Origin: Reclinomonas americana ATCC 50394
Taxonomy: Eukaryota
Assembly: GCA_048213135.1 (NCBI GenBank)
Contig: PS015181.1
Coordinates: forward strand, 1 to 64,000
Reading direction: 5' to 3'
DNA: 64,000 bases
Under the pieces are notes generated by a model. That model had not been told where the DNA came from. It ran no database searches and saw only the letters and a list, made by a program, of their open reading frames with translations. A program made the position numbers and the translations under genes. Shown in pieces: positions 2,910 through 51,899 of this stretch (positions within the stretch are counted from its first letter, which is position 1; each line of letters starts with the position of its first letter).

Positions 2910-3150
2910 TAATGAGTGAATTGGTTGTTGCAGTTTCGGAAAAAACGTAATGTAAAGACGAATTGTAGACACCGTGCGAGAACACTCGCACACAAAACAC
3001 TTTGCATCGCACGCTCTCGCTTGGTGAGTTCTCTCACATTCCCAGTGCGCGCGTGTCCCATCCACTTACTCACTCACGCACGCAATCAACAGCGGTCTGT
3101 CTCTCTCTCTCTCCCTCTCTCCCCCTTTTTCCCCCAACACACTCGACATA

Positions 3151-3630
3151 ATGGGCGGCGGCGGCGGCGGCGGCGGCTACACTCCCCCACCCCCACCGGT
3201 GGTGCACACTGTGTTGCGTTGTGTGTGTGAGAGAGAAATGAGAAATGAGAGAGAGAGAGAAAGTGAAAGTGCGCGCTCTCCGATATTCCGTGCACTCACA
3301 CTCATTCGACGCACACAGCTCTCCGCATATCACGGTCGCGGGCCAGAACATCCACACGGTGAGTGCGGTGACAAGAGTGCATCCAGAACGCACTCTCACT
3401 CCTATTCCTTCTCCGACTCTCACGCATAATGCACACACGCTTGCACACACTCACTCGCTCTCTCTCTCTCTCTCCCACACACACACACACTCACTCACTC
3501 CACGCACACACACACACAAAGTCTCCACCACTCAGCCTCTCCTCCTCCCTCTCCTTCTCCCTCTCTCCTTCTCCCTCTCTCCTTCTCCCTCTTGCCTTCT
3601 CCCTCTTGCCTTCTCCCTCTTGCCTTCTCC

Positions 3631-3678
<48 letters not shown>

Positions 3679-4312
3679 CTCTCTCGTCTCTCTCTCGTCT
3701 CTCTCTCGTCTACGTCTCTCGTCTCGTCTCNNNNNNNNNNNNNNNNNNNNCGCACACTACTCTCTTCTGCTGTACGGCCTAACGGCGGACCGTACGTCTA
3801 CGCTCCCTCTTGCCTTCTCCCTCTTGCCTTCTCCCTCTTGCCTTCTCCCTCTTGCCTTCTCCCTCTTGCCTTCTCCCTCTTGCCTTCTCCCTCTTGCCTT
3901 CTCCCTCTTGCCTTCTCCCTCTTGCCTTCTCCCTCTTGCCTTCTCCCTCTTGCCTTCTCCCTCTTGCCTTCTCCCTCTTGCCTTCTCCCTCTTGCCTTCT
4001 CCCTCTTGCCTTCTCCCTCTCGCCTTCTCCCTCTCGCCTTCTCCCTCTCGCCTTCTCCCTCTCGCCTTCTCCCTCTCGCCTTCTCCCTCTTGCCTTCTCC
4101 TTCTCCCTCTCGCCTTCTCCCTCTCGCCTTCTCCCTCTTCTCCCTTCTCCCTCTCGCCTTCTCCCTCTCGCCTTCTCCCTCTCGCCTTCTCCCTCTCCCT
4201 CTCCTTCTCCCTCTTGCCTTCTCCCTCACAATCCCTCTGCTGTTCACAGACTGTGCATGAGATGCGCGAGGAAATGCCAGACGGAGAGATTGGAGGCGGC
4301 GCAGACCTCTAA
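3151..4312 (+). CDS. Micropeptide copy 1, 54 aa: MGGGGGGGGYTPPPPPVVHTVSPHITVAGQNIHTTVHEMREEMPDGEIGGGADL
   Basis: Exons 3151-3212, 3319-3358, 4250-4312 with GT-AG introns. Same exon structure as three paralogues; differences after the first base of exon 2 are all synonymous. Confidence 0.88.
3800..4225. repeat. 14-bp polypyrimidine minisatellite (TTCTCCCTCTTGCC / TTCTCCCTCTCGCC) in intron 2 of micropeptide 1
   Basis: Tandem units directly visible; the variant switches near 4020. Confidence 0.93.
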
Positions 4313-4691
4313 CTTGGGAGGTCACTCGAGGCGATCCAGCTCTCTCTCTCACTGGCGAGATTATGTCTTGTAAAACACAATCAATGCTCGTCAACAATTA
4401 AGTGAGACACTGTCCACTGCATTCTGCCAGAGCTCCTCGTCCTCGCCTCCTATGTACACCTTTCTTCTGCAAGCTCCTCGTCCACGTGAAACGTCGCTTG
4501 TTGTCGTCCTGCATCCCTTCCGTTCCGTTCCTTGTGAGCGCACACACTCTCTGTTCCTCAAGTGTGCTGCCTAGGCCCATGCAACGTACTCCTCGTCCAC
4601 GTGAAACGTCGCTTGTTGTCGTCCTGCATCACATCCAATCTACTAGTGTAACAGAATCCCTCCCTCGTTCACCGTCCCCTCTTCTTATGCT

Positions 4692-5658
4692 ATGCACAAA
4701 CCTCTCTTCTGCAAGATCATCCGCGGCCACACCGATTTTGTGCGCTCGGTCGCCATCTCGCCCGACGGCCAGCACATTGCCAGTGGGAGTGGCGACGAGA
4801 CCGTGCGAGTGTGGTCCATGGCGAATGGAGAAGAAGTGCAGCAGCTGGAGGGACACACCGCAGAGGTGTTTTCTGTCGTGTTCACCCCCGACGCTCGCCA
4901 CGTTGTGAGTGGCAGCTGGGACATGACGGTGAGAGTGTGGTCGCTGGCGAGTGGTGCAGAGGTGCGGCGGCTGGAGGGGCACACTGGGGCGGTGCGATCG
5001 GTGGCTGTTTCACCGTGCGGTCGGCTGGTGGTGAGCGGGAGTTATGACAAGACAGTGCGAGTGTGGTCATGGGCAAGTGGAGAAGACGAACAAGTGCGGC
5101 GCTTGGAGGGGCACACGGGAGTGGTGTTTTGCGTCGCCNNNNNNNNNNNNNNNNNNNNNNNNNNNNNNNNNNNNNNNNNNNNNNNNNNNNNNNNNNNNNN
5201 NNNNNNNNNNNNNNNNNNNNNNNNNNNNNNNNNNNNNNNNNNNNNNNNNNNNNNNNNNNNNNNNNNNNNNNNNNNNNNNNNNNNNNNNNNNNNNNNNNNN
5301 NNNNNNNNNNNNNNNNNNNNNNNNTTTGGAGAGCGGAGAGGAGGTGCGACGGCTGGAGCGGCACACCTCGTGGGTGCTTTCAGTCGCCGTCTCTCGCTGC
5401 GGTCAGCACGTCGTGAGTGGAAGCTACGACAAGACTGTGCGAGTGTGGTCTTCGCCACGTGGCGTCGCTCAACTCGAGCTTGACGTGTCTCGGTTGGCCA
5501 TGCGCGCGGTTCAAGAGATGCAGCGTGAGGCCTTGGAGGAGGAGGCGGAAGAACCGGATTCACGGTGCCTGCCAGAGATGGTTCTCCGCTGTTTTATCGT
5601 CGAGGAGGCAGCTGTCGTTCTTCATCGATGTCACAGTAATCCTCGGTTGTGCATCTGA
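4692..5658 (+). CDS. WD40 + conserved-tail protein, copy A (gap 5139-5324)
   Basis: GH...WS repeats on both sides of the gap; ends LELDVSRLAMRAVQEMQRE...PDSRCLPEMVLRCFIVEEAAVVLHRCHSNPRLCI. Confidence 0.88.
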
Positions 5659-6711
5659 GGTGCGGATGCTTCTGAAGAGAGAAAAAGAGGGAAGTGGTCC
5701 AAGTAAACCCGTCAAAAATGAAAGTGGAATCGATATGGATAATGAATGGCCTTTCGTTGCCAGTGTGGTGGCAGTAGGAGCAGCTGATACGCACGGGGAG
5801 CCACTACACGTCCACAACAACAGATGGAGACTTTGCACTGTGGTCCCACGTCCCCTCAACACACNNNNNNNNNNNNNNNNNNNNNNNNNNNNNNNNNNNN
5901 NNNNNNNNNNNNNNNNNNNNNNNNNNNNNNNNNNNNNNNNNNNNNNNNNNNNNNNNNNNNNNNNNNNNNNNNNNNNNNNNNNNNNNNNNNNNNNNNNNNN
6001 NNNNNNNNNNNNNNNNNNNNNNNNNNNNNNNNNNNNNNNNNNNNNNNNNNNNNNNNNNNNNNNNNNNNNNNNNNNNNNNNNNNNNNNNNNNNNNNNNNNN
6101 NNNNNNNNNNNNNNNNNNNNNNNNNNNNNNNNNNNNNNNNNNNNNNNNNNNNNNNNNNNNNNNNNNNNNNNNNNNNNNNNNNNNNNNNNNNNNNNNNNNN
6201 NNNNNNNNNNNNNNNNNNNNNNNNNNNNNNNNNNNNNNNNNNNNNNNNNNNNNNNNNNNNNNNNNNNNNNNNNNNNNNNNNNNNNNNNNNNNNNNNNNNN
6301 NNNNNNNNNNNNNNNNNNNNNNNNNNNNNNNNNNNNNNNNNNNNNNNNNNNNNNNNNNNNNNNNNNNNNNNNNNNNNNNNNNNNNNNNNNNNNNNNNNNN
6401 NNNNNNNNNNNNNNNNNNNNNNNNNNNNNNNNNNNNNNNNNNNNNNNNNNNNNNNNNNNNNNNNNNNNNNNNNNNNNNNNNNNNNNNNNNNNNNNNNNNN
6501 NNNNNNNNNNNNNNNNNNNNNNNNNNNNNNNNNNNNNNNNNNNNNNNNNNNNNNNNNNNNNNNNNNNNNNNNNNNNNNNNNNNNNNNNNNNNNNNNNNNN
6601 NNNNNNNNNNNNNNNNNNNNNNNNNNNNNNNNNNNNNNNNNNNNNNNNNNNNNNNNNNNNNNNNNNNNNNNNNNNNNNNNNNNNNNNNNNNNNNNNNNNN
6701 NNNNNNNNNNN

Positions 6712-7514
6712 AGGGACACACAGATGAGGTGTGGTCTGTCGCCGTTTCTCCCGACGGTCGGTACGTTGTGAGTGGGGGTAGGGACAGCACAGTGCGAATC
6801 TGGCAGTTGGCGAGTGGCGATGAGGTGAGACGATTGGAGGGACACCAAAGTGTGGTGTTTGCTGTCACCGTCACTCCCGACGGCGAACGCATTGTCACTG
6901 GCAGTGAGGATAGGACTGCGCGGGTGTGGTCGTGGGCGAGTGGCGAGGAAGTGTTACGATTCGAGGAGCACACTGAGCGGGTGCGATCAGTCGCTGTCAC
7001 TCCCGACGGTCAGCACGCAGTGAGTGGATGCGAAGACGGCATTGTGGGTATTTGGTCTCTGGCGAGTGGCGAGGAGATGCGAATGTTGGATCACAGTCGT
7101 TTGGTGTATTCTGTTGCCGTTACTCCCGATGGCCAGCACGTCGTGAGTGGGTGCTGTGACAAGACTGTGCGTGTGTGGTCCTTGGTGAGTGAAGAGCAGG
7201 AAGCACGGCAACTGAGAGGTCACACAAAAGAAGTGACTTGTGTTGCCGTCTCTCGCTGCGGCCAGCACATTGTTAGCGGCAGCTGGGACGATACTGTGCG
7301 AGTGTGGTCCTCGCCATGTGGCCTCGCTCGGCTGGAGCTCGCTGTGGCTCGGTTGGCCATGCGCGCGGTTCAAGAGATGCAGCGTGAGGCGAAGATGGAG
7401 GAGGAAGAACCGGATTCTCGGTGCCTGCCGGAGATGGTTCTTCGTTGTTTCATTGTCGAGGAGGCAGCTGTCGTTCTTCATCGGTGTCGCAGTGATCCTC
7501 GGATGTGCATGTGA
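6712..7514 (+). CDS. WD40 + conserved-tail protein, copy B (5' end in gap)
   Basis: Five visible WD40 repeats and the same C-terminal tail; no introns in the visible part. Confidence 0.9.
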
Positions 7515-7789
7515 GCTTCAGAAGAGAGGAAGGAAGGCTCCATGCGAGCCCGTCAAGAATGAAAGTGGTATCGACATTGACAATGCACGGCCGTGCGACG
7601 CACATGCTGTGGTGGTAATAGGAGCAGCTGATACACATGGGAAGTCAATCAGGCATCGCAGTCAGACGTTTGTGGTCCCACGTCCTTTTCATCCACAAAC
7701 CCACTCTCCGTCTCGCACCTCTCTCTTGTGTGTGTTTTCATCCTCCTTGATCTCTCCCTTCTCCCTGCATCTCCCTTCCTACTTCCTTC

Positions 7790-8887
7790 ATGTCATCAAA
7801 GTCTCTCTCCTGCAAGATCCTCCACGGACACACTCACTATGTTTGGTCCGTCGTCGTCACTCCCGATGGCATGCACGTGGTCAGTGGCAGCAGCGACAAG
7901 ACCGTGCGAGTGTGGAACATGGCGAGTGGCGAAGAGGTGCGACGGTTGGAGGGACACTCATATCATGTGCTGTGTGTAGCCGTCACTCCAGATGGCCAGG
8001 AAATAGTTAGTGGGAGCGAGGATCGCACAATTCGCCTGTGGTCACTCGCGAGTGGGAGGGAACTGCGGCGGTTGGAGGGTCACACTGGCTCGGTGTGGTC
8101 GGTCGCCTTGTCTCCTGATGGTCAGTTCGTTGTGAGTGGGAGCAGCGACAGGACTGTTCGCTTGTGGTCATTGGCGAGTGGATCGCGAGTGCGGCGGTTG
8201 AAAGGGCACAGTGGAAGTGTAATGTCCGTCGCCGTCGCTCCCGATGGTCAATACGTTGTGAGTGCGGGCGATGACATGACTGTTCGAGTGTGGCCCATGG
8301 CGAGTGGCGAACAAGTGCGACGGCTGGAGGGACACATTAGTCTGGTATGGTCTGTGGCCGTCGCGCCCGACAGTCGACGCGTTGTGAGTGGGAGCTGGGA
8401 CAGGACTGTTCATGTGTGGTCGCTGGAGAGCGGAGAAGGAACAACACGGCGACTGGTGGGGCACACTGATTTCGTGTGGTCTGTCGCCGTCACTCCCGAC
8501 GGTCAGCACGTTATTAGTGGGAGTCAGGACAAGACCGCTCGTGTTTGGTCTCTGGCACGCGGAGAGGAGGTGCAACGGTTAGAAGGACACGACCAGGCAG
8601 TGTCGTGTGTCGCCGTCTCTCCAAGCGGCCAGCACATTGTCACAGGCGGCTGGGATAAGACTGTGCGAGTGTGGTCCACACCGTGTGGCCTCGCTCGGCA
8701 GGAGCTTGATGTGGCTCGGTTGGCCATGTGCGCAGTTCAGGAGATCCAGCGCGAAACGATGGAGGAGGAAGAAGAACCGGCCGCGGATTCACGGTGCCTG
8801 CCTGAGATGGTTCTCCGCTGTTTCATTTTAGAGGAGGCAGCTGTCGTGCTACATCGATGTCGCTGTGACCCCCGGTTATGCATGTGA
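7790..8887 (+). CDS. Intronless 7xWD40 + conserved-tail protein, copy C (365 aa)
   Basis: Seven complete ~42-aa WD40 repeats plus the tail in one uninterrupted ORF. Confidence 0.95.
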   Translation: MSSKSLSCKILHGHTHYVWSVVVTPDGMHVVSGSSDKTVRVWNMASGEEVRRLEGHSYHVLCVAVTPDGQEIVSGSEDRTIRLWSLASGRELRRLEGHTGSVWSVALSPDGQFVVSGSSDRTVRLWSLASGSRVRRLKGHSGSVMSVAVAPDGQYVVSAGDDMTVRVWPMASGEQVRRLEGHISLVWSVAVAPDSRRVVSGSWDRTVHVWSLESGEGTTRRLVGHTDFVWSVAVTPDGQHVISGSQDKTARVWSLARGEEVQRLEGHDQAVSCVAVSPSGQHIVTGGWDKTVRVWSTPCGLARQELDVARLAMCAVQEIQRETMEEEEEPAADSRCLPEMVLRCFILEEAAVVLHRCRCDPRLCM

Positions 8888-9203
8888 GGTGCAGAGTGCT
8901 TTGTAGAGTGAGGGAAAATCCAAGTGAACCCGTACGCGTCAAGAATGAAAGCGGGATCGACATTGACAATGCACGGCCTTGCACAGCACATGCTGTGTTG
9001 GCTATCATGCAAAGGGGCAGCTGATACACATGGGTAGTCAACCAGCCTCGCGTTTCTCTCAACAATAGGAGACGTCGCTTGTGGTCCCTCGTCCTTTTCA
9101 TCCACAAACACGCGAGCGCAAACATCTCTCTCTCACACGTCTCTCTTTGTGTGTGTGTTTCCATTCCACTCTGCTCCCACCCTCCTCTCCTCCCACTCCC
9201 CTC

Positions 9204-10295
9204 ATGTCATCTCCGCCTTTCTCCTGCCAGATTATTCGTCTGCACAGTGATTTGGTGCGTGCTGTTGCCTTCACTCCCGATGGCATGCACGTAGTCATTG
9301 GCAGCAACGACAAGACAGTGCGAGTGTGGAACATGGCGAGTGGCGAAGAGGTGCGACGGTTGAAGGGACACTCATCTCCTGTGCTTTGTGTGGCCGTCAC
9401 TCCAGATGGCCAGCACGTTGTGAGTGGGAGCGAGGATCGCACAATTCGCCTATGGTCACTGGCGAGTGGGAGAGAACTGCGGCGGTTAGAGGGTCACACT
9501 GGCTCGGTGTGGTCTGTCGCCGTTTCTCCCAACGGACTGCACATTGTAAGTGGCTGCTATGACAGCACAGTGCGAATTTGGCTGTTGGCGAGTGGCGAGG
9601 AAGTGAGACGGTTGGAGGGGCACAGGAGTGCGGTGCATGCTGTCGCCGTCACTCCTGATAGTCAGCACGTTGTGAGTGGGAGTAATGACTGCACAGTGAG
9701 AGTGTGGTCCATGGCGAGTGGCGAAGAAGTGAGACGGTTGGAAGGACACAATAGCTTAGTGTGGTCTGTAGCCGTCACTCCCGACAGTCGACACGTTGTG
9801 AGTGGGGGCTGGGACAACACAGTGCGAGTGTGGTCCTTGGGGAGCGGAGAAAAATTGTGGCGACTGGTGGGGCACACTGATCTCGTGTGGTCTGTCGCCG
9901 TCACTCCCGACGGTCAGCACATCGTGAGCGGCAGTGCTGACAAGACCGCACGTCTTTGGTCTCTGGCACGCGGAGAGGAGGTGCAACGGTTAGAAGGACA
10001 CGACAAGGCAGTGTCGCGTGTCGCCGTCTCTCCATGCGGCCAGCACATTGTCACTGGCGGCTGGGACAAGACTGTGCGAGTGTGGTCCTCGCCATGTGGC
10101 CTCGCTCGGCAGGAGCTTGACGTGGCTCGTCTGGCCATGCGCACAGTTCAGGAGATGCAGCGTGAGGCGACGACGGAGGAGGAAGAAGAACCGGATTCAC
10201 GGTGCCTGCCAGAGATGGTTCTCCGGTGCTTTATCGTCGAGGAGGCAGCTGTCGTTCTTCATCGGTGTCGCAGTGATCCTTGGATGTGGATGTGA
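9204..10295 (+). CDS. Intronless 7xWD40 + conserved-tail protein, copy D (363 aa)
   Basis: Start MSSPPFSCQII aligns with the paralogue starts; seven repeats plus tail. Confidence 0.93.
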   Translation: MSSPPFSCQIIRLHSDLVRAVAFTPDGMHVVIGSNDKTVRVWNMASGEEVRRLKGHSSPVLCVAVTPDGQHVVSGSEDRTIRLWSLASGRELRRLEGHTGSVWSVAVSPNGLHIVSGCYDSTVRIWLLASGEEVRRLEGHRSAVHAVAVTPDSQHVVSGSNDCTVRVWSMASGEEVRRLEGHNSLVWSVAVTPDSRHVVSGGWDNTVRVWSLGSGEKLWRLVGHTDLVWSVAVTPDGQHIVSGSADKTARLWSLARGEEVQRLEGHDKAVSRVAVSPCGQHIVTGGWDKTVRVWSSPCGLARQELDVARLAMRTVQEMQREATTEEEEEPDSRCLPEMVLRCFIVEEAAVVLHRCRSDPWMWM

Positions 10296-10580
10296 GTTGC
10301 AGTGTCTGGATGCTTCAGAAGAGAGAAAAAGAGGGAAGTGGTCCAAGTAAACCTCAATTCAGTTGCGATCGAAGTTGACAATGCACGACGTTGTGACGCC
10401 AGTGCGGTGGTAATGGGAGCAGCTACTAAACATGGGAAGTCAACCAGCCATCGCAGATAGACGTTGCTTCGCAGTCCCAGGTCCTTCCAAACCGTCGCAC
10501 CTCTCTCTTGGTCCTCTCTTGTGTGTTTTCATCCTCCCTGATCTCTCCCTTCTCCCTGCATCTCCCTTCCTACTTCCTTC

Positions 10581-11669
10581 ATGTCATCTGCGCCTCTCTC
10601 CTGCAAGATCCTTCGCGGACACACTCACTTTGTTTGGTGTGTCGCCATCACTCCCGATGGCATGCACGTGGTCAGTGGCGGCAACGACAAGACCGTTCGT
10701 GTGTGGTCCATGGCGAGTGGCGAGGAACTGCAGCGGCTGGAGGGGCACTCGTCTTCCGTAGTGTGTGTAGCCATCACTCCCAGCGGCATGCACGTTGTGA
10801 GTGGGAGCAGCGACAACACAGTGCGAGTATGGTCACTCGCGAGTGGAGAGGAACTGCGGCGGTTCGAGGGACACACAGATGTGGTGTGGTCTGTCGCCGT
10901 TTCTCCCGATGGTCAGTACGTTGTGAGTGGGAGTAGAGACAGCACAGTGCGAATTTGGCTCTTGGCGAGTGGCGAGGAAGTGAGACGGTTGGAGGGACAC
11001 ACTGCCATGAACTCGGTTGCTGTAACTCTTGATAATCAGCACGTTGTTAGTGCTGGCGATGACAGCACCGTGAGAGTGTGGTCGATGGCGAGTGGCGAAG
11101 AAGTGCGACGGCTGGAGGGACACAGTAGTACAGTGTGGTCAGTGGCCGTCACCCCCGACAGTCGACACATTGTGAGTGGGAGCTGGGACAAGACTGTGCG
11201 AGTGTGGTCGCTGGAGAGCGGAGAAGAGTTGCGACGGCTGGTTGGGCACGCCAGATGGTTGCAGTCTGTCGCCGTCACTCCCAATGGACAGCATGTGGTG
11301 AGTGGCACTTCTGACGGCACCGCACGAGTGTGGTCTCTAGCAAGCGGAGAGGAGGTGCAACGGTTAGAAGGACATGACAAGGCAGTGTCGTGTGTCGCCG
11401 TCTCCCGCTGCGGCCAGCACATTGTCAGCGGCAGCGGCGACAAAACTGTGCGAGTGTGGTCCTCGCCATGTGGCGTCGCTCGACTCGAGCTCGATGTGGC
11501 TCGGTTGGCCATGCGCGCAGTTCAGGAGATGCAGCGTGAGGCGATGATGGAGGAGGAGGAAGAACTGGATTCTCGGTGCCTGCCAGAGATGGTTCTTCGT
11601 TGTTTCATTGTCGAGGACGCAGCTGTCGTTCTTCATCGGTGTCGCAGTGATCCTCGGTTGTGCATGTGA
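10581..11669 (+). CDS. Intronless 7xWD40 + conserved-tail protein, copy E (362 aa)
   Basis: Seven repeats plus tail, single ORF. Confidence 0.95.
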   Translation: MSSAPLSCKILRGHTHFVWCVAITPDGMHVVSGGNDKTVRVWSMASGEELQRLEGHSSSVVCVAITPSGMHVVSGSSDNTVRVWSLASGEELRRFEGHTDVVWSVAVSPDGQYVVSGSRDSTVRIWLLASGEEVRRLEGHTAMNSVAVTLDNQHVVSAGDDSTVRVWSMASGEEVRRLEGHSSTVWSVAVTPDSRHIVSGSWDKTVRVWSLESGEELRRLVGHARWLQSVAVTPNGQHVVSGTSDGTARVWSLASGEEVQRLEGHDKAVSCVAVSRCGQHIVSGSGDKTVRVWSSPCGVARLELDVARLAMRAVQEMQREAMMEEEEELDSRCLPEMVLRCFIVEDAAVVLHRCRSDPRLCM

Positions 11670-11905
11670 GGTGTTCGCCTGATCGCTGCATTGTGTCTTG
11701 TGCTGGTAGCTGTGGTCGACAGACTTCGAGCAGCCAGTTTCCGTGGACCGACCGGCTCCGTTGTATTTATTGTTTGCTGTTCGTAATGTGAGTGCGTGCG
11801 AGAAGAGTCGCTGGTGTGCGTGCGCGCACTTTCTCACCCCCCACTCATTCTATTGTGTGCATGTATGTCGCCACAGCTGCGCAACTTTCTCATACTCAAA
11901 CAAAC

Positions 11906-12247
11906 ATGGGCGGAGGAGGAGGACACCATCACAGCTGGCACTACACGCCGCCGCCGGTCGTGCACACTATGTTGCGTCTCACACGACGCTGCGAGGACTC
12001 AGCGACAAGATAGCAGTGTCACTGACTACTTCAAGACCACCACAGTTCGCCGCACATCACCGTCGCCGGTCAGAACATCCACACGGTACGTGGTACTGAT
12101 CACGCGAGCTCGAGGTGTTTTGTTCGACCCACGCACTTCTCACACTCGTGTCTTGCGGTTTCCTCCCCATATGCATCGTAGACCGTGTCGGAGATGCGCC
12201 AGGAGATGCCGGATGAGAGCTTTGAGCACGGGGCCGGCGGGCTCTAG
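11906..12247 (+). CDS. Micropeptide copy 2, 56 aa: MGGGGGHHHSWHYTPPPVVHTISPHITVAGQNIHTTVSEMRQEMPDESFEHGAGGL
   Basis: Exons 11906-11970, 12046-12085, 12182-12247. Confidence 0.88.
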
Positions 12248-12665
12248 ATCTGAGGAGTTCCAGTGATACACCGCAACTCAGCGCGTGGTGGAAGTCCCGT
12301 TATCTGTGCGTATCATGGTGGCGGAATGAAAGGCGGTGATCGCGCTGCACTCTCGCACCAGCTGCAGCTGCAGGTTATATAGGGCGGATGCCTTGCAAAT
12401 CAACAAGCATGTCGCCACTTCGAGTTCACGTGAGGGAACGACGAGAGAAATCGCCCCAGATCGTGCACACCGGTCATAGAAGCAACAACAGCTGTGGAGT
12501 CCACCAGCGAAGGCGCGCGAAGGTCTCGCTTTTCAATGCATGACGACAAGAGGACATTCTTCTCAGTCACAAGGTCGGTGTGTGTGTGCGAGAAGAGTCG
12601 CGTTCTACTCTCACTGCTCATCGTGACCACCACAGTCTTCTTCCACACACACACACCACACAAAC

Positions 12666-12990
12666 ATGGGCGGAGGAGGAGGCCACCACCATCATCACCA
12701 CTACACACCGCCGCCAGTCGTGCACACCATGTTACGTCCAAACTCACACACAGAGAGAGAGATAACAAAGAAAGTGGAGCATTAACACACGTACACACAG
12801 CTCGCCGCACATCACTGTCGCCGGCCAGAACATTCACACGGTGAGTTTGTAACATGCATGTTCGAAAATCAGCAACAGCACTTCTCATCGCTTTTTGTTT
12901 GTTGTTTGTGTTGTCATGTTATAGACGGTGTCTGAGATGCGCCAGGAGATGCCGGATGAGCACGACGACGGTCTTGGAGGCGGGCTCTAA
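12666..12990 (+). CDS. Micropeptide copy 3, 56 aa: MGGGGGHHHHHHYTPPPVVHTISPHITVAGQNIHTTVSEMRQEMPDEHDDGLGGGL
   Basis: Exons 12666-12730, 12801-12840, 12925-12990. Confidence 0.88.
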
Positions 12991-13359
12991 CACGCAGAAA
13001 GTGTTGTGCAGCGTATAAGCAGCAAAATGAAATGACGACTGTGCGTGCGCGTGCAAGTTGAGCAACGCAGGGAAACAGAGCATGAGAGAGATAGGCGAGT
13101 GGTTATCCGACAAAAAAAGGTCGACATTTTGCATGTGAGTGAGGTAGTGCGAGACTTCTCGCGTCCGCTTTTCTCGCACTCGACCAACCAACGTTTTTGC
13201 TTCCTCGCCTGCGCACAGGTGACCTCCTCCATCTCCTCTTGTGTTGTTGTGTTGCGCTTATCATGCTCACTGACACTGTGCGTGTGTGTGTGCACAGCGG
13301 CATTCTCCACACACTCTCCTCACTCTCTCTCTTTTACCTTTCTTCTCCTCACATAAGAA

Positions 13360-14363
13360 ATGGGCGGCGGCGGCGGCGGCGGTGGATACCATGCTCCTCC
13401 TCCTCCTCCAGTGGTGCACACAATGTTGCGCTTCTTTGCACGCGCGTGTGTGTGTCACTGTGTGTGTCTTATCAATATACTCGACTTGCAGCTCCCCGCA
13501 CATCACGGTGGCGGGCCAGAACATCCACACGGTGAGTGTACACACTCTCGCATGCACGCACGCATGTTATGAGTGCACGTTTTGCCAACTTGCATTCTCA
13601 CACTTCTTCTCACACTCACTCTCGCGGCTCTTGTGTCTGTGTTTGTGTGTCTCTCTCTCTTGTCATGGTACACACTGGCGCAAGTTGTGCACACATCTGC
13701 TTCTGTTTCACTCACATTCTCACACTTCTTCTAACACTCCTCCCGTACTCTCCGTGTGTCTCTTATCTCTCAAATCGCAATCTCACACTTCTCACACTCA
13801 CACTCCGCCCTTCGCTCTCCGTGTCTGTGTGTGTGTGTCTCTTGGCACGGTACATACAGGCGCAAGTTGTGCACACAACTGCTTCTCTCTCTCTTCCCTT
13901 CTCACACGGACTCACACATGCTCTACGCCCGTCACTCTCCGCCTTTGTGTCATGGCACACAAGCGCACGTGCATTCGTGTCTGCTTCTCTTTTCACTCTC
14001 ATTCTCGCACTTCCCTTCTCGCACTCTCCTCCCTTCTCTCCGTGTCTGTGCTCTTATCTCTCTTTCTCGCTTCCTCTCACTCTCCTCCCTTCTGTTCCCG
14101 TGTCTGTGTCTCTGTTGTCATGGCATACAAACGCACGTGCATTCTTGGTTGCGTTGCACACAACTTTCATTCTCACTCATTCTCGCACTTGCTTTCACTC
14201 ACTTTCCTCCGTGTCTCTCGTCATGTGCACACCAGCGTGCAAGATGATTCTCTTCCACTCACAATCCCTTTTCTTCTTCTTCTTCTTCTTCTCGCAGACT
14301 GTGCACGAGATGCGCGAGGAAATGCCTGACGAAGCAGTCGGCGGAGAGCACGGAGGGCTCTAA
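13360..14363 (+). CDS. Micropeptide copy 4, 56 aa: MGGGGGGGGYHAPPPPPVVHTISPHITVAGQNIHTTVHEMREEMPDEAVGGEHGGL
   Basis: Exons 13360-13424, 13492-13531, 14298-14363. Confidence 0.88.
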
Positions 14364-14878
14364 ACCGGCAAGGAAACAAGGAGGAGAGCTGGTCTCTGTT
14401 CTCTCTGAAGGCCTTTTCTCCAGGCTTCGTTTTTTCTCTTGCGGTGCTTCCGCTGCGGTAGTAAAACTGTAGTGTGACTTGTCACAGTGGTGCCACGGGG
14501 CGGGGAAGCAAACAGAAATAGGTGTCCCTCCTCCCTCTGCTTATCTGTAATTCCTTCTCCTATTCCTTTGAGCTGCAAGCCATTTCCTGCAGAGTGGCAT
14601 TCCTTCGTCTCCTTCAACTCATTCTGTCTTCCACCTACCTCCCTTTTTCTTCCAAGTCTCTCGCTTCTCAACATCCTCTTTTCTCTTTTTGCTCCCCTTC
14701 TCTAGCAACTGAGAAACATGGGAGTTGCACCTGCACTTCTCCTTCATCAGGCGCTCCTTCTCGATTTCACTTCCTTCATCTTCTTCCTCTCCTCCTCAAT
14801 GCAGCACCAAGATTGCCGAGTGGAGAAGAACCGACATACGAGGAGACGGGACGCACTCTCCTCTGAAGCTTGTCCTGC

Positions 14879-20770
<5,892 letters not shown>

Positions 20771-21582: not shown

Positions 21583-21828
21583 ATCACTGCTCCCACTAAT
21601 AATGTGACGACCATCAGGAGTGATGGCAACTGAAGTCACCCAGTCAGTGTGCCCCTCCAATCGCCGCACTTCGTGCGCACTCGCCAGCGACCACACTCTC
21701 ACAGTGCGATCACCACTCCCACTCACGACGTGCTGCCCATCTGGAGTCACGGCGATGGACCACACAATAGAGAAGTGTCCGCACAGACACTTGCAGAAAA
21801 CAGAAGCCGGAGAAGCAGCTGCGGTCAT
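21583..21828 (-). CDS. WD40 family protein, copy F (only 5' part visible)
   Basis: MTAAASPASVFCKCLCGHFSIVWSIAVTPDGQHVVSGSGDRTVRVWS..., closely similar to the copy G start, then runs into a gap. Confidence 0.82.
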
Positions 21829-22007: not shown

Positions 22008-23096
22008 TCACAGTCGGAGACTCTCATTCATGGCGCAGCGGTGAATAACGACGGCCGCCTCTTCGACAATGAAGCAGCGCAGCACCATCTCTGGCAGACA
22101 GCGTGAGTCCGGCTCTTCCTCTTCCCTCTTCTCGCGCTGCATCTCTTGGACAGCACGCATGGCCGATCGAGCCACTTCAAGCTCCAGTCGAGCAAGGCCG
22201 AATATTGTGGACCACACTCGCAATGTCTTGTCGGCACCGCCACTCACAATGTGCTGGCCATCGGGAGTGACAACGATTGAGTGCACCCAGTCATTGTGTC
22301 CCTCCAGCCGTCGCACCTCTTCTCCACTTGCCAGCGACCACACTCGCAAGCTGTTGTCGTTACTCCCACTCACAACGTACTTCCCGTCGGGAGTGACAGC
22401 GACTGCTTGAACTGTGTCAGCGTGCCCATTCAACCGTCGCACATCCCTGCCACTTGCCAGTGACCACACACGTATTGTTCGGTCCCTGCCTCCACTCACC
22501 ACATGCTGACCATCTGGTGTGCTAGCGACACAGTGCACCGGCTGAATGTGCCCCCTCAGTCGTCGCACTTCTTCGCCACTCGCCAGGGACCATACATGCA
22601 CACTTCCGTCTCGACTGGCACTCAAGACATGCTTGCCATCGGGGGTGACGGTGACCTCGCTCGCATGTGCCTCAAACCGTCGCACTTCCTTTCCATTCGC
22701 CAGTGACCACACACGCACTGTACCGTCGTCGCTCGCGCTAACAACGTGTTGACTGTCGGGAGTGACAGCAACAGACACCACCCCCCAGGTGTGTCCCTTC
22801 AGCCGTCGAACTTCTCGTCCACTTGCCAGAGACCACACTCGCACTGCTTCATCATCACTGCCGCTCACGATGTACTGCCCGTCGGGGGTGACAGCGACAG
22901 AGCGCACCCAGTCAGTGTGCCCCTCCAACCGTTGCACTACATGTCCACTCGCCAGCGACCACACTCTCACAGTGTGATCAGCACTCCCACTGATCACGTA
23001 ACGACTATCAGGAGTGACGGCGACGGACCACACAGTAGTGGAGTGCCCATACAGACACTTGCTGAAGAGAGCAGGCGGAGAAGCAGCTGCGGTCAT
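22008..23096 (-). CDS. Intronless 7xWD40 + conserved-tail protein, copy G
   Basis: MTAAASPPALFSK, seven repeats, then LARLELEVARSAMRAVQEMQRE...PDSRCLPEMVLRCFIVEEAAVV. Confidence 0.93.
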   Translation of the reverse strand: MTAAASPPALFSKCLYGHSTTVWSVAVTPDSRYVISGSADHTVRVWSLASGHVVQRLEGHTDWVRSVAVTPDGQYIVSGSDDEAVRVWSLASGREVRRLKGHTWGVVSVAVTPDSQHVVSASDDGTVRVWSLANGKEVRRFEAHASEVTVTPDGKHVLSASRDGSVHVWSLASGEEVRRLRGHIQPVHCVASTPDGQHVVSGGRDRTIRVWSLASGRDVRRLNGHADTVQAVAVTPDGKYVVSGSNDNSLRVWSLASGEEVRRLEGHNDWVHSIVVTPDGQHIVSGGADKTLRVWSTIFGLARLELEVARSAMRAVQEMQREKREEEEPDSRCLPEMVLRCFIVEEAAVVIHRCAMNESLRL

Positions 23097-23302
23097 GGCG
23101 TGCGTCGAGTGTAGGATCGTGTGTAGTGTGTCCTTGAACTTGGAGGACGATCTCCCTTCTTCGCCACATCGTTGTCGAGCGCGTGACGTGGTAGGTGCAG
23201 TCTGTAATACTGCAGCAGGCTTCCAACCGCAAAGCACCCGAGCTTGCCTGGCCCCCCACACACGCGCGTGCGTCCACATTCAACTCGACGTCGTCTCCGT
23301 CG

Positions 23303-24639
23303 ATGTCATCCGTTCCCCCTCTCCACTGCAGCGTTCTCCGCGGGCACGCGGGTTNNNNNNNNNNNNNNNNNNNNNNNNNNNNNNNNNNNNNNNNNNNNNN
23401 NNNNNNNNNNNNNNNNNNNNNNNNNNNNNNNNNNNNNNNNNNNNNNNNNNNNNNNNNNNNNNNNNNNNNNNNNNNNNNNNNNNNNNNNNNNNNNNNNNNN
23501 NNNNNNNNNNNNNNNNNNNNNNNNNNNNNNNNNNNNNNNNNNNNNNNNNNNNNNNNNNNNNNNNNNNNNNNNNNNNNNNNNNNNNNNNNNNNNNNNNNNN
23601 NNNNNNNNNNNNNNNNNNNNNNNNNNNNNNNNNNNNNNNNNNNNNNNNNNNNNNNNNNNNNNNNNNNNNNNNNNNNNNNNNNNNNNNNNNNNNNNNNNNN
23701 NNNNNNNNNNNNNNNNNNNNNNNNNNNNNNNNNNNNNNNNNNNNNNNNNNNNNNNNNNNNNNNNNNNNNNNNNNNNNNNNNNNNNNNNNNNNNNNNNNNN
23801 NNNNNNNNNNNNNNNNNNNNNNNNNNNNNNNNNNNNNNNNNNNNNNNNNNNNNNNNNNNNNNNNNNNNNNNNNNNNNNNNNNNNNNNNNNNNNNNNNNNN
23901 NNNNNNNNNNNNNNNNNNNNNNNNNNNNNNNNNNNNNNNNNNNNNNNNNNNNNNNNNNNNNNNNNNNNNNNNNNNNNNNNNNNNNNNNNNNNNNNNNNNN
24001 NNNNNNNNNNNNNNNNNNNNNNNNNNNNNNNNNNNNNNNNNNNNNNNNNNNNNNNNNNNNNNNNNNNNNNNNNNNNNNNNNNNNNNNNNNNNNNNNNNNN
24101 NNNNNNNNNNNNNNNNNNNNNNNNNNACGCACGTGGTGTGCGGCGGCCGTAACGGGGCGATACGATTTCGATCACTGGCAAGTGGCAAGGATGTGTGGCA
24201 GCAGGTGTCGGGACCCGCTCACTGGGTGAAAAGCGTGGTCGTCTCCCCCAACGGCCTGTACGTGGTGAGTGGAAGCGAAGACAAGACAGTGCGGTTGTGG
24301 TCGTTGGCGAGTGGCGATCAAGTGCAGCTTCTGGAGGGACACACCAGCTGGGTGCAGTCTGTTGCCATCTCGTCGGATGCTCAACACGTGGTCAGTGGCA
24401 GCTGGGACACCACTGTACGTGTGTGGTCTTCTCCATGTGGCCTCGCGCGCCTCGAACATGACACGGCACGGGCGGCCATGCATGCCGTCCAACAAATGCA
24501 GCTGGCGACTGAAGACGAAGAAGAGGACCGAGTGCCGGATTCGCGCTGTCTCCCAGAGATGGTGCTTCGTTGCTTCTTGGTCGAGGAGGCAGCGGTTGTG
24601 GTGTACCGCAGTCAATGCGATCCGCGGCTGTGCTTGTGA
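23303..24639 (+). CDS. WD40 + conserved-tail protein, copy H (middle in gap)
   Basis: MSSVPPLHCSVLRGH before the gap; WD40 repeats and PDSRCLPEMVLRCFLVEEAAVV after it. Could be parts of two genes. Confidence 0.8.
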
Positions 24640-24830
24640 GCTTGATGGGCGAGTGAATGTAACGAGAGACACGAATCAAGCAATCTCTCCGTAGTTCAAC
24701 ACATCATCATCATCATCACAACACATCAGGAGGGGATAGCGTCGATAGAGCGAGTGTCGTACGATGCTGGCCGAGCAGAGGACGGAGAAGAAAACAGGCG
24801 GCTGATGCACACGCGGGCAGTTACCGGTGT

Positions 24831-25752
24831 TCACGAGTACGAGACAAGCTCGACCTCGAAGATCAGCGTCGCGTTGGCCGGAATGACTGGAGGGTAACCA
24901 CGAGCACTGCAAACACACACACACAGAATGAGAATGCAAGCGATGCGGAGGGAGGACAAGCGAGCACCACATGCTCACCCGTAGCTGCCAGAGGTCGCAG
25001 GAAACACACACACAACTCATGTGAGCCAGACCGACGCATTTCGAAGGTTCACAGGAGACGCAACGCATAGTCGGGGCTGCAGGTGAGCTTGGCGGTCTCG
25101 CCGACCGACATCTGCGCCACACCCTCGTCCCATCCCTTGATGACCTGCACAGCAACACACCAGTCACACACAAAAAGCAGACACCGACAATGACAACTCG
25201 CTGTCCGACGAACCTGGCCAGCACCGAGCGTGAACTCAAAGTGACGGCCTGCAAATTACATCAGTCGACCATGCTTGCAACTCACACACACGACAAGGCA
25301 CACTCACCGCGATCGCGCGACGAGTCGAACTGCGCAGGTGCGAAAAAAAAAAAAGGAGCGGTCACAACGTTGCAATTCCTCACACGAATTTGAGTGTGAG
25401 TGTGGCTTACCTTGGTGCCATTGGTCAGCGTGCCCACGTAGTGCACCTTGACCTTGGAGCCGCTCTTGGGCTTGTCACCGTTGCCTGTTGGTGAGCACAT
25501 AGTGAGCGATTCGCCATGTCCTTGTTCTCCTTCTCACGCTCTCTCTATTTTTCTCTCTCTCGCCACGCACCAGCCTTGATGGTCTCGACCTCCACGCCCT
25601 GTGTGCACACGCGTGTGAGTGACAAGTCGCGCGCGCCATTTCCTCCATCAGACAGAAATACACATTGTTTTGCAACGCGCAGCGACACAGGCTCGTGCGA
25701 CACCATGCATGTACGCAGACACAGAAGAAGCAACGGGGGATCAACGCACCAT
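24831..25752 (-). CDS. FKBP12: FKBP12-type peptidyl-prolyl isomerase (7 exons)
   Basis: [107 protein letters not shown]. The ATG exon is placed by best donor match. Confidence 0.95.
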
Positions 25753-25957
25753 GATAACAACAAACAAATGTGTGTGCGTAGCGCGAGCGCGTCTGTCCTC
25801 TGTCCTCATTATTTCGCGCGCGCTCATCAAAAGCGAAGTGAGCCTGCACGCAGCACGCAGCACAGCAGCCTCGTTTCGCGTTGCGCGTGCGTCTGCATCC
25901 CTTCCTCTCCCTCTCTTTCCCGTTTGATTTCGTCGTTTTTGTGCGTGCGCGGTGAAA

Positions 25958-48415: not shown

Positions 48416-49869
48416 TTACAGTTTCGCCCGCAGCGGTTGGCCTGCGGGCGTCAGCAGCACGTCGGTGGCGGCTTGCTCGATCGTGCGCACACCGGAGAGC
48501 GCCATGGCCAGCTGCAGTTCGTCTTCGAGGATTTGCAGTGCGCGCTCCACACCGACTTGTCCGTGCACGGCCAGCGCCCACAGGAGCGGGCGACCGACGA
48601 GCACGGCACGGGCGCCCATGGCCAGTGCCTTTAGAATGTCGGTGCCGCGACGAATGCCGCCATCAATATACACCTCGCAGTCCTGGCCGCTGGTGGCGGT
48701 CACAATGGCCGGCAGGGCGTCCAGCGCACTAATGGCGCCGTCCAGCTGGCGGCCGCCGTGGTTGCTGACCACCACACCGCGGCAGCCGCAGTGCACGGCG
48801 AGTCGGGCGTCGGCGGGGTGCAACACGCCCTTGACCAGCACCGGCAACGTCGTCGACTCCACCAGCCACCGAATGTCGTCCCACGTGAGACTGGCGTCCA
48901 TCTGCGCGCCCATGAACTGCGACAGGGCGCTCACTCCCTCTGGCACGTTCGACGAGAGTGTCTGCGAGAGGAAGAATGAACCCACAGAGCAAGAGGGAAA
49001 CGCGATCGGGTGACAGACCAGGGGAAAGTTGGCGAGCTGCGCATGACAGGCAATGAGAAGGTGAGCAATCGGAGAGAGCACGGAGGATAGACAGAATGCA
49101 CACCGTGATATCCGGCGGTCTGCAAACACACACACAGTGAGCACCGCTGCTTTCCGAAGATACACAAGAAGAACAGCACACGCAACAGATGAAAGCCGTT
49201 GCGCAAGTCGGCCTCGCGCTTGCCGGTCTTCGGCGCATCGACCGTGACACACAACGCCGTGTAGCCGGCGACCTCGGCACGCCGCACAAGCGCCGCCGTC
49301 AGCGCCCGATCGCGCAGCACATACAACTGCAGCCACTTGACAGCACCAGGCGCCGCCTCCTGCACCTGCTCCACGCTCGACGTGGCAAACGAGCTCAACA
49401 CAAAGCCCGCACCACGCTTCTCCGCGGCCTTGGCCATCGCCAGCTCGCCTTCCGTGTGCGCTAGCCTCTGCATGGCCATTGGTGCAATCAGGATCGGTGA
49501 TGCGATTGACTGCGCGATGCACGAAGTGAGCAGGAGAAGAGCGATGAGTGAGTTGCAAGTGGTCTTGTCGCAACCTTGCCAAGAACAGTGGTCCGCATAT
49601 CGATCGTGGACACATCGCGCAGCATGCGAGGCACCACTGCGATGCGAGCAAACGCCGCACGATTGTCACGCAACGTGTGCAAGTCATCGGCGCCAGTGCT
49701 TTGTATAACACGTGAGCAGCGTGCAAGCGGAAGAATGCATGCAAGGTACGAGACGCAACGCGTAATAGTCAAAGACCATCTGAGGCAGCACTTGCCGTGC
49801 CCGCTCCTCGTACTCTTGCACGTTGATCACCTTGGAGGCGGCGAGGCGGTCGTCTCCTCTCGCTTGCAT
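48416..49869 (-). CDS. HAO: FMN-dependent (S)-2-hydroxy-acid (glycolate) oxidase, peroxisomal
   Basis: FDYYATGA, WLQLY, VTVDAP, LPVLVKG, VVSNHGGRQLD, DGGIRRGTDILKALAMGA; C-terminal AKL is a PTS1 signal. Confidence 0.96.
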
Positions 49870-50164
49870 GTTTCGAACGTCGACAGTGATCGCAGGACGA
49901 GCTCGTTGTGCATGCAGAGTAGCGTGCAAGTGATGAGTGGGGAGAGAAAAGAGATACCATTGCGTGTCGCCAGTGGAGAATGTTTGCAGCGTGCTGGGAA
50001 TGCGAAAGCAATCGGTATCCGACGTCGACATCGAGCTCCAACAGATCTTGCTGTCGTGCAGCTTGAGCCAGCACTGCATGTATCAACCCCTCTTCTCCCT
50101 CTTTCATGTAGTAGAGCAGCCGATAGACAAGCACAGTGGACGCAATGACGAGATCGAACACACC

Positions 50165-51259: not shown

Positions 51260-51555
51260 TGCGGTGGCAGTGTGTAAACGAATTTCAAGGTATCGTGTGA
51301 CTGCTCTCTCATGCTATGTATGGTACACTTTGTAGGATTAAATTACAGGTCTTGTTGTCGAGGGCAAGGTGCGTGTGGTGTGCAATCACACAAAATCTCG
51401 TCCCCACGAGGCGCCTGCCACGCACGAGGCGCTCTCGATGACGCCGAGATGATGTGGATGCGTTCGCGAGCGAGTCTCTCGTGAGCAGGCCTGCAGCAGG
51501 GGAAGCACACAGGTGACGAGCCGTTTGCAGGATGAGACACTGACCGCCTCTGGTG

Positions 51556-51890
51556 TGCTGCTGTGCCTGTGCTGTGCTGTGCTGTGCTCTGTTCTGCTCT
51601 GCTCTGCTCTTTTCTGCTCCGCTCTGCTCTGTTCTACTCTGCATTTCCCTTCTCTGCTATGCTGTGCTCTGCCTCGCTCTGCTTTGCTCTGCCTTGCTAT
51701 GCTCTGCTCTGCTCTGCTCTGATCCGCTCTGCCTTGCTCTGCTTTGCTTGCTCTTCTCTTCCCTGCCCTGCCTTGCTCTTCTCTTTTCTGTTCTGTTCTG
51801 CTCTGCTCTGCTTTTCTCTTCTCTGCTTTGCCCTGCCCTGCTCTCCCTTGCTCTTCCCTTCCCTTCCCTTCCTTTCTCTTCTCTTCTCTT
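51556..51890. repeat. Degenerate pentanucleotide repeat (CTCTG/CTGTG/CTCTT)
   Basis: 5-bp periodic tract, probably intronic in the adenylate kinase gene. Confidence 0.9.
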
Positions 51891-51899
51891 CACACTCAC

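What the first reader, a model, noticed from the sequence alone, without database searches (positions are those of the whole stretch)
3151..14363. Unannotated four-gene micropeptide family (54-56 aa) with a near-invariant core
Seen: four genes with the same three-exon layout and a 40-nt middle exon, none recovered intact by the ORF track. The core PPVVHT[V/I]SPHITVAGQNIHTTV[H/S]EMR[E/Q]EMPD is conserved while synonymous sites vary (Ser TCT/TCG/TCC, Thr ACG/ACC/ACT, Ala GCG/GCC) and the introns are largely unalignable, which is the signature of purifying selection. Layout: poly-Gly(+His), poly-Pro, a beta-prone V/H/T/I core, then an acidic tail ending in Leu (GGL in three copies). There is no signal peptide and I recognise no family. 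Inference: a self-assembling or amyloid-type signalling or structural peptide, a processed peptide precursor, or a short docking ligand (SPHITV loosely resembles PxIxIT).
Basis: partly seen in the sequence, partly recalled or inferred. Interest (0 to 1): 0.85.

Follow-up and report, generated by a model that had tools for sequence, protein, structure and literature searches.

The report
Jakobid beta-hairpin microprotein gene family
Four neighbouring, intron-split genes of a protist that is almost certainly Reclinomonas americana encode 6 kDa proteins with a nearly invariant core predicted to fold as one histidine-bearing beta-hairpin; one has a matching spliced transcript, none matches a described family, and their job is unproven.

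Summary
Observation confirmed. Four + strand genes each have three coding exons (62-65/40/63-66 nt) and encode 54-56 aa. In the 31-codon core, 28 residues are invariant, and 17 of 21 variable sites are third codon positions. A EukProt protein from a Reclinomonas americana EST matches spliced gene 4 at 55 of 56 residues across both junctions. So at least one copy is transcribed and spliced as modelled, and the organism is a jakobid. Pfam, NCBIfam, PHROGs and PDB give no family (62-65). AlphaFold2 from the single sequence gives four short strands at residues 18-41, with block pLDDT 93 and 90 for residues 21-40 (69). I read these as one long amphipathic beta-hairpin with a His-His cross-strand pair. 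Best guess (0.35): a cytosolic hairpin that docks on a conserved partner, gated by metal or pH. Caveat: my broad homologue searches had little power, and one missed the EST protein, so relatives in other eukaryotes are not excluded. The scan's look-ups showed no earlier look-alike sequence, but it noted two other tandem microprotein families in this assembly.

The parts
3151..3212 (+). P1 coding exon 1 (ATG, poly-Gly, Tyr, poly-Pro, start of core); 62 nt
   Evidence: purine at -3 and G at +4
3319..3358 (+). P1 coding exon 2, 40 nt, centre of the core (predicted hairpin turn)
4250..4312 (+). P1 coding exon 3 (end of core, acidic Gly-rich tail, TAA); the intron before it contains a 20-N gap at 3731-3750
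3024..3092 (+). P1 putative 5' UTR intron (69 nt), acceptor 58 nt before the ATG
   Evidence: inferred from donor and acceptor motifs; no transcript evidence
11906..11970 (+). P2 coding exon 1 (poly-Gly, His-rich arm, poly-Pro); 65 nt
12046..12085 (+). P2 coding exon 2, 40 nt
12182..12247 (+). P2 coding exon 3, 66 nt, ends TAG
11788..11876 (+). P2 putative 5' UTR intron (89 nt), acceptor 29 nt before the ATG
   Evidence: inferred
12666..12730 (+). P3 coding exon 1 (poly-Gly, run of six His, poly-Pro); 65 nt
12801..12840 (+). P3 coding exon 2, 40 nt
12925..12990 (+). P3 coding exon 3, 66 nt, ends TAA
12574..12635 (+). P3 putative 5' UTR intron (62 nt), acceptor 30 nt before the ATG
   Evidence: inferred
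13360..13424 (+). P4 coding exon 1, 65 nt; an in-frame TAA two codons upstream fixes this ATG as the start
   Evidence: matches EST protein P0002
13492..13531 (+). P4 coding exon 2, 40 nt; both of its junctions are present in EST protein P0002
14298..14363 (+). P4 coding exon 3, 66 nt, ends TAA
13219..13297 (+). P4 putative 5' UTR intron, acceptor 62 nt before the ATG; donor at 13219 or at 13135
   Evidence: inferred

Best explanation
A family of four cytosolic 5.4-6.0 kDa microproteins of a jakobid. Shown: the genes are real, selected at the protein level, and gene 4 is spliced and transcribed. Predicted: residues 18-41 fold into beta strands, which I read as one long two-stranded hairpin with its turn at Ala29-Gly30. 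One face is mostly Val/Ile/Pro; the other is Thr/Asn/Ser/His. Inferred mechanism: the flexible Gly(/His) arm, the poly-Pro spacer and the acidic tail are solubility and spacing elements. The hairpin folds on binding and pairs with the edge of a beta-sheet in a conserved cellular partner, or in a small defined oligomer of itself. The invariant cross-strand pairs His25/His34 and His20/Glu39 would make this docking sensitive to Zn/Cu or to pH near neutrality. The four copies give dosage or separate regulation, not different specificities. The partner is not identified.
For: 28 of 31 core residues are invariant although silent sites differ at 36-68% and the introns have largely diverged. Constraint covers both faces of the predicted strands, as expected for a segment buried in a larger interface (inference). 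AF2 single-sequence model: block pLDDT 93 and 90 for residues 21-40, strands 18-22, 25-28, 31-34 and 37-41, flanks at 53-72. The strand limits add up to 59 in both pairs, which gives a single hairpin register with His25:His34, Ile26:Ile33, Ile22:Val37 and His20:Glu39, and faces of mean hydropathy +0.76 and -0.99 (hydropathy scale recalled). No chain among 48,161 PDB representatives aligns at Z of 2 or more, and pTM is 0.34, which fits an extended hairpin rather than a compact domain (weak evidence). Exon 1 is 62-65 nt and exon 3 is 63-66 nt although their sequences are slippage-prone and differ, so arm lengths appear constrained. There is no hydrophobic stretch, no Cys and no Lys.
Against: The model rests on one sequence with no alignment. 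AF2 readily draws hairpins for Val/Ile/Thr-rich strings (my knowledge), and I ran no shuffled control. I did not see coordinates: the same strand list also fits a four-stranded meander, in which the His pairs would differ. No partner, metal binding or localisation was tested. No structural match is significant (Foldseek best E 0.46 in PDB and 0.33 in viral models). The His-rich arm is present in only 2 of 4 copies. Only P4 has transcript support.
Confidence: 0.35

Rival explanations
1. Self-assembling filament or functional amyloid: the hairpin or beta-arch stacks on itself without limit, as a structural fibre or as a prion-like switch, perhaps triggered by zinc as in shepherin I.
For: Alternating hydrophobic/polar core with a central Gly between disordered Gly/Pro and acidic flanks. 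HET-s-type motifs are about 21 aa with a conserved Gly and a hydrophobic-polar pattern (PMC7889193, passages). Zn(II) drives fibril formation in the Gly/His-rich peptide shepherin I (PMC10698721, abstract). Four near-identical copies suit an abundant polymer (inference).
Against: The motif is not shared with any neighbouring protein: best non-family hit in the six-frame window is E 0.11. The neighbours are WD40 propellers with a helical tail; no NACHT or NB-ARC family is among the best 25 Pfam families shown for each. The spliced protein has no Pfam hit (that Pfam holds RHIM and HET-s models is recalled). An invariant Pro sits in the middle of the first strand, and Glu/Arg lie in the second; uncompensated charges are not seen inside beta-arcades (PMC4262963, passages).
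Confidence: 0.17
2. Histidine-based metal store or chaperone, working like Helicobacter Hpn or other Gly/His-rich peptides.
For: 4-10 His per 54-56 residues, including a run of six in P3, plus invariant Met, Glu and Asp in the core. Small paralogous His-rich nickel-binding proteins are known (PMC4671568, search listing and abstract start).
Against: The His-rich arm is missing in P1 and nearly missing in P4. Selection is strongest on Val/Ile/Thr/Gly/Gln/Asn residues that bind no metal. A simple chelator would not need a 28-residue invariant core (inference).
Confidence: 0.13
3. Calcineurin docking peptide: PHITVA acts as a PxIxIT motif, making these small inhibitors or adaptors of the phosphatase.
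For: Pro, Ile and Val at positions 1, 3 and 5. In PVIVIT, Val at position 5 has little effect (PMC6728138, passages and section 8). The motif binds as a beta strand (established knowledge).
Against: Position 6 is Ala, not Thr; a Thr-to-Asn change there lowers binding (I did not see data for Ala). The pattern occurs in 4.8% (strict) and 11% (loose) of 20,000 shuffles of the core. A 6-residue motif does not explain 28 invariant residues.
Confidence: 0.07
4. Processed precursor or conjugated tag: the C-terminal Leu (or ADL in P1) is clipped to expose a di-Gly end that is ligated to targets, in the manner of ubiquitin-like or Pup-like modifiers; or a fragment is released as a peptide signal.
For: All four have a Gly-Gly 1-3 residues before the stop, and all end in Leu. 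The size and disordered flanks resemble Pup (recalled).
Against: The tails are Gly-rich, so Gly-Gly is expected by composition. The tail is the least conserved part. There is no ubiquitin fold, no signal peptide and no dibasic site, and I saw no processing enzyme among the genes I identified nearby (not an exhaustive annotation).
Confidence: 0.07
5. The peptides are ligands or substrates of the adjacent intronless WD40 propeller family, making the locus a sensor-ligand cluster.
For: Five WD40 genes lie between P1 and P2. Propeller top faces commonly bind peptides (established knowledge).
Against: The same WD40 family also sits at 22.0-23.3 kb and 24.1-24.6 kb, away from any peptide gene. The WD40 copies diverge quickly (62-78% identity to the first) while the peptides are nearly invariant. 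Adjacency alone is weak evidence.
Confidence: 0.04
6. Non-coding repeat or chance pattern.
For: Only 1 of 4 genes has a transcript match, and no protein-level evidence exists.
Against: Third-position bias (p = 1e-5), conserved intron phases, homologous starts and stops, and a spliced EST open reading frame.
Confidence: 0.02

Closest known systems
EukProt EP00694_Reclinomonas_americana_P000835 (EST EC784542.1, ORF type complete; P0002)
   Same: 55 of 56 residues identical to spliced P4, across both junctions; 41-45 identities to P1-P3. It is the product of this gene or of a very close allele or paralogue.
   Different: Ser instead of Gly at position 3. The source gives no functional name, and it is a one-member cluster. 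It is a record, not a description.
Hisactophilin of Dictyostelium (PMC9245636, passages read)
   Same: Protist protein with an N-terminal Gly, rich in His, cytosolic; a model for His-based pH control.
   Different: Hisactophilin is a folded protein with 31 His that sequesters its myristoyl group in a core. These peptides have 4-10 His, no such core, no Pfam or PDB sequence match and a poor NMT motif.
Shepherin I and Hpn-type Gly/His-rich metal-binding peptides (PMC10698721 abstract; PMC4671568 listing)
   Same: Small, rich in Gly and His, likely to bind Zn/Cu/Ni.
   Different: Here the Gly/His part is the variable arm and the conserved part is a beta-rich core. No sequence match was found.
Amyloid signalling motifs RHIM, HRAM, PP and BASS (PMC7889193 and PMC4262963, passages)
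   Same: About 20-25 residues of alternating hydrophobic/polar pattern with a central Gly and a following Asn, between disordered flanks.
   Different: Those motifs are appended to NLRs and effectors encoded next to each other. This one is the whole protein, is shared with no neighbour, has no Pfam hit and contains an internal Pro.
PxIxIT calcineurin-docking peptides (PMC6728138, passages and section 8)
   Same: Pro-x-Ile-x-Val spacing in a beta-prone segment.
   Different: Ala at position 6; the motif is embedded in a much longer invariant region; the match has about a 5% chance rate.

Membership tests
Functional small-ORF protein family (microprotein) | ORF under 100 codons with purifying selection | tested here: met
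   54-56 aa; pN 0-0.06 vs pS 0.36-0.68; 17 of 21 variable sites at third positions
Functional small-ORF protein family (microprotein) | Spliced transcript | tested here: met
   Met for 1 of 4 genes: EST-derived P0002 equals spliced P4 at 55 of 56 residues. No match to P1-P3 was returned.
Functional small-ORF protein family (microprotein) | Protein detected | not testable with these tools
   No proteomics or ribosome profiling available
Amyloid signalling sequences (RHIM/HRAM/PP/BASS) | Same motif at the N-terminus of an NLR and the C-terminus of an effector in adjacent genes | tested here: not met
   Profile of the four peptides finds no other copy in the window, best E 0.11; neighbours are WD40 proteins with a helical tail. 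The rest of the genome was not available.
Amyloid signalling sequences (RHIM/HRAM/PP/BASS) | Match to a described motif profile | tested here: not met
   0 Pfam families for P0002 at E up to 10, though filters drop most hits above 0.1; the recalled RHIM core pattern is absent in 4 of 4
Amyloid signalling sequences (RHIM/HRAM/PP/BASS) | Alternating hydrophobic/polar pattern with a conserved arch Gly | tested here: inconclusive
   Pattern and invariant Gly30 are present, but so are an invariant Pro24 and charged residues
Amyloid signalling sequences (RHIM/HRAM/PP/BASS) | Forms self-templating cross-beta fibrils | not testable with these tools
   Needs ThT, EM and seeding assays
Calcineurin PxIxIT ligands | Pro, Ile, Ile/Val at positions 1, 3, 5 | tested here: met
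   PHITVA in 4 of 4; found in 4.8% of shuffles
Calcineurin PxIxIT ligands | Thr (or a similar polar residue) at position 6 | tested here: not met
   Ala in 4 of 4. The paper's source-data supplements, which may cover Ala, were not read.
Calcineurin PxIxIT ligands | Binds calcineurin | not testable with these tools
N-myristoylated proteins | Gly at position 2 | tested here: met
   4 of 4 genes and P0002
N-myristoylated proteins | Preferred GXXXS(K/R) context | tested here: not met
   Gly at the Ser position in 4 of 4 and no Lys; preference taken from PMC8689648, one passage on human NMTs. It is a preference, not an absolute rule.
Hisactophilin / beta-trefoil His-switch proteins | Sequence or fold similarity | tested here: not met
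   No Pfam, PDB-sequence or fold match
Ubiquitin-like or Pup-like modifiers | Beta-grasp fold or Pup family match | tested here: not met
   0 families in Pfam and NCBIfam; the model has no helix
Ubiquitin-like or Pup-like modifiers | Di-Gly at or near the C-terminus | tested here: inconclusive
   Present 1-3 residues before the stop in 4 of 4, within a Gly-rich, poorly conserved tail

The most novel reading that the evidence does not exclude
The peptides are stand-alone, metal- or pH-gated self-templating switches. A His25/His34 clasp converts a soluble 6 kDa hairpin into a polymer that relays a signal or builds a structure, without being fused to any receptor or effector, and the interleaved WD40 propeller array could supply sensors. 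That would be an amyloid-type signalling or assembly unit of a new layout in Discoba, a lineage far from the animals, fungi and bacteria in which such motifs are described in the papers I read.
Probability: 0.08. Interest if true: 0.85.

Novelty: new variant of a known kind. Interest (0 to 1): 0.47.

Why it matters
Jakobids are a key lineage for reconstructing early eukaryotes, and genes this small and intron-split are easily missed by ordinary annotation. This family is a clean, testable case: a 31-residue core held almost invariant across four old paralogues, short enough to synthesise, with a specific structural prediction (a hairpin with a His-His cross-strand pair). If it docks on a conserved protein, it marks a regulatory interface not yet described. 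If it polymerises on metal or pH change, it is a new layout of functional amyloid. As it stands it is an undescribed microprotein family of unknown range. Lineage-restricted small-protein families are not rare, so the score is moderate.

Tried and rejected
No whole genome is held, so copy number outside the window is unknown. Sequencing runs: no RNA holder listed for 10400-15500; this is no evidence on expression, and no reads could be laid.

Protein searches with the unspliced P2 read-through gave no candidate at 50-160 aa, 0 of 6 candidates passing at 161-2000 aa, and one hit among 1.84 billion representatives, P0001, a repeat protein aligned mainly to intron text and rejected. These blanks have little power. 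One search missed P0002 although it is 56 aa and shares 12 five-residue words with the query, and the read-through scores only 17.6 bits against P0002, versus 71 bits for the spliced protein.

Locus scans found no relative: exact exon-2 pattern 0 in metagenome contigs; 0 of 22, 0 of 13 and 0 of 12 pattern matches confirmed with the 13-residue alignment in metagenome, viral and prokaryote contigs; 0 of 437 and 0 of 545 with P0002 in viral and prokaryote contigs; no phage match. A PDB sequence hit to a phage coat protein (E 0.047) used intron text and vanished with the spliced protein. ESM Atlas on the exon-2 region gave one row at 0.75, below its useful range. Fold searches gave no significant match. 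A four-copy complex prediction of residues 13-48 gave no verdict. An alignment of P0002 with single-exon fragments was mis-aligned and not used.

Literature: five motif strings matched 2 papers that look unrelated by title and abstract start; searches on Reclinomonas or jakobid small proteins listed nothing on this family (listings only, 20 of 466 and 15 of 40 shown).

Rejected ideas: an N-terminal extension or signal peptide from an upstream exon (in-frame TAA two codons before the P4 ATG; no in-frame Met in the modelled leaders back to the previous stop); alternative first exons of the downstream gene (each copy has its own stop); homology between exon 3 and the WD40 tail (tblastn E of 2 or worse).

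Full report
Observation. Each has three coding exons of 62-65, 40 and 63-66 nt, GT..AG introns in phases 2 and 0, and a product of 54, 56, 56 and 56 residues. In the 31-codon core, 13 codon columns are invariant, 15 vary only silently and 3 change the residue. Pairwise pN is 0-0.06 and pS is 0.36-0.68, and 17 of 21 variable sites are third positions (p = 1e-5). Most intron and flank comparisons score within or close to shuffled values; the clearest exceptions among 24 are named in the observation check. P1 pairs with P4 and P2 with P3. A profile of the four proteins finds no fifth copy in the window (best other hit E 0.11). All four first introns begin GTTGCG or GTTACG after a T. The same donor is needed to keep a kinesin gene of this window in frame (28649-28770), and earlier scan notes describe this donor class in the same assembly. 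Each gene also has a likely 5' UTR intron ending 58, 29, 30 and 62 nt before the ATG, distances that follow the P1/P4 and P2/P3 pairing (inferred from motifs only). P1 intron 2 spans a 20-N gap.

Transcript and organism. The third protein search returned 1 candidate of 1: P0002, 56 aa, at only E 4.2 because the query was the unspliced gene. It is EukProt EP00694_Reclinomonas_americana_P000835, translated from EST EC784542.1, with no functional name and no other cluster member. It equals spliced P4 at 55 of 56 positions and runs through both junctions. It also places the window in Reclinomonas americana or a very close jakobid (taxonomy), since the paralogues share only 41-45 residues with it. 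The TBestDB paper lists 17,644 ESTs for this species (PMC1899108, passages), so one hit suggests expression that is not rare but gives no level. No transcript match was returned for P1-P3.

Relatives. With the spliced protein, Pfam, NCBIfam, PHROGs and PDB sequences gave 0 matches each. Viral contigs, prokaryote genomes and phage records gave none. The searches that could have reached other eukaryotes were run earlier with the unspliced read-through and cannot be trusted as negatives. One search missed P0002 itself, which was in its length range and shares 12 five-residue words with the query, and the read-through scores 17.6 bits against P0002 where the spliced protein scores 71. The family is therefore unassigned, not shown to be an orphan. 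I found no description in print with five motif strings or with searches on Reclinomonas and jakobid small proteins (listings only).

Anatomy. The proteins have no hydrophobic stretch, no Cys, no Lys, one Arg, 4-10 His and pI 4.9-6.0. The order is: Gly arm (His-rich in P2 and P3 only), Tyr, poly-Pro, core, acidic Gly-rich tail, Leu. AlphaFold2 on P0002 alone gave mean pLDDT 72.8 and pTM 0.34, with 93 and 90 for residues 21-30 and 31-40, and strands at 18-22, 25-28, 31-34 and 37-41. The strand limits fit a single register (i + j = 59), that is one long hairpin turning at Ala29-Gly30 and interrupted at Pro24. In that register His25 faces His34, Ile26 faces Ile33, Ile/Val22 faces Val37 and His20 faces Glu39; one face averages +0.76 and the other -0.99 in hydropathy. 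This register is my inference from the strand list. A four-stranded meander fits the same list, and I saw no coordinates. No fold search gave a significant match.

Mechanism. Nearly every residue on both faces of a 24-residue segment is fixed across paralogues whose silent sites have diverged by 36-68%. A free hairpin buries too little to explain that, and a six-residue docking motif explains even less. The simplest reading is that the hairpin is buried in a larger interface, with a conserved partner or in a defined oligomer, and that the cross-strand His and His/Glu pairs make the docking depend on metal or pH (0.35). Shown: genes, selection, one transcript. Predicted: beta strands. Inferred: the hairpin register, the partner, the gating. 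Open-ended polymerisation is the nearest rival (0.17). It has precedent in the zinc-induced fibrils of the Gly/His-rich peptide shepherin I (PMC10698721, abstract). However, the arrangement that defines amyloid signalling, one motif shared by an adjacent NLR and effector (PMC7889193, passages), is absent from this window. A metal store (0.13) fits P2 and P3 but not the site of conservation. Calcineurin docking (0.07) meets positions 1, 3 and 5 but has Ala at position 6 and a 4.8% chance rate; the source-data supplements of PMC6728138, which I did not read, may say how Ala at that position behaves. Myristoylation is possible but not favoured: Gly2 is there, the preferred GXXXS(K/R) context is not (PMC8689648, one passage). 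Hisactophilin (PMC9245636, passages) is an analogy for His control, not a relative. A clipped di-Gly tag (0.07) is not excluded.

Neighbourhood. Five WD40 genes separate P1 from P2. The three complete ones are intronless with seven WD40 repeats; the other two are broken by assembly gaps. Two more copies lie 8-10 kb downstream without peptide genes. Their shared tail is predicted as two long helices and has no Pfam match above cut-off. I found nothing that links them to the peptides (0.04). Earlier scan notes report two other tandem families of about 55-60 residue spliced proteins in this assembly (not checked by me; no sequence look-alike was returned), so small hidden gene families may be common in this organism.

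Verdict. A real, expressed, strongly conserved microprotein family of a jakobid that matches no described family. The function is open and the range across eukaryotes is untested. Interest 0.47; the most novel reading not excluded (a stand-alone metal- or pH-gated self-templating switch) has probability about 0.08.

Noticed in passing
window 4647-5655 (+, gap inside), 6714-7511 (+, start in gap), 7790-8884, 9204-10292, 10581-11666 (+), 22011-23279 (-), 24127-24636 (+, start in gap): Seven copies of a WD40 gene family (the three complete + strand copies are intronless with seven repeats) in an otherwise intron-rich genome. All end in the same ~70-aa tail: helix, acidic linker, then a Leu-Pro-Glu-led helix that recalls F-box/SOCS-box adaptors (recalled resemblance). 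The tail has no Pfam match above cut-off, no Atlas hit, and AF2 predicts two long helices.
   Followed up: partly
window 3213, 11971, 12731, 13425 and kinesin intron 28649-28770: Splice donors GTTGCG/GTTACG preceded by T, a shifted-looking donor class. It is needed for frame in the kinesin gene (36) and supported by the EST protein at the P4 junction. Already noted elsewhere in this assembly.
   Followed up: partly
window 21583-21793 (-): Start of an eighth WD40 copy with the same N-terminal pattern, running into the assembly gap that ends at 21582 (read by eye).
   Followed up: no
window about 14900-20700 (+): WD40 protein gene that looks like WDR24/Sea2 of GATOR2 (recalled resemblance), directly downstream of P4.
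   Followed up: no
window about 24825-25755 (-): FKBP12-like gene split into many short exons, with the ATG apparently alone at the end of an exon (read by eye).
   Followed up: no
window about 56000-64000 (+): Long Thr/Ser/Val/Gly-rich open frames (796 codons at 58146-60533) after a predicted membrane segment; possibly large beta-rich surface proteins.
   Followed up: no
window about 48900-54750: Exons resembling glycolate oxidase, adenylate kinase and leucine carboxyl methyltransferase (recalled resemblance).
   Followed up: no
P0002 position 3 vs window 13366-13368: The EST protein has Ser where genomic P4 has Gly: allele, strain difference, EST error or a fifth paralogue outside the window.
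   Followed up: no
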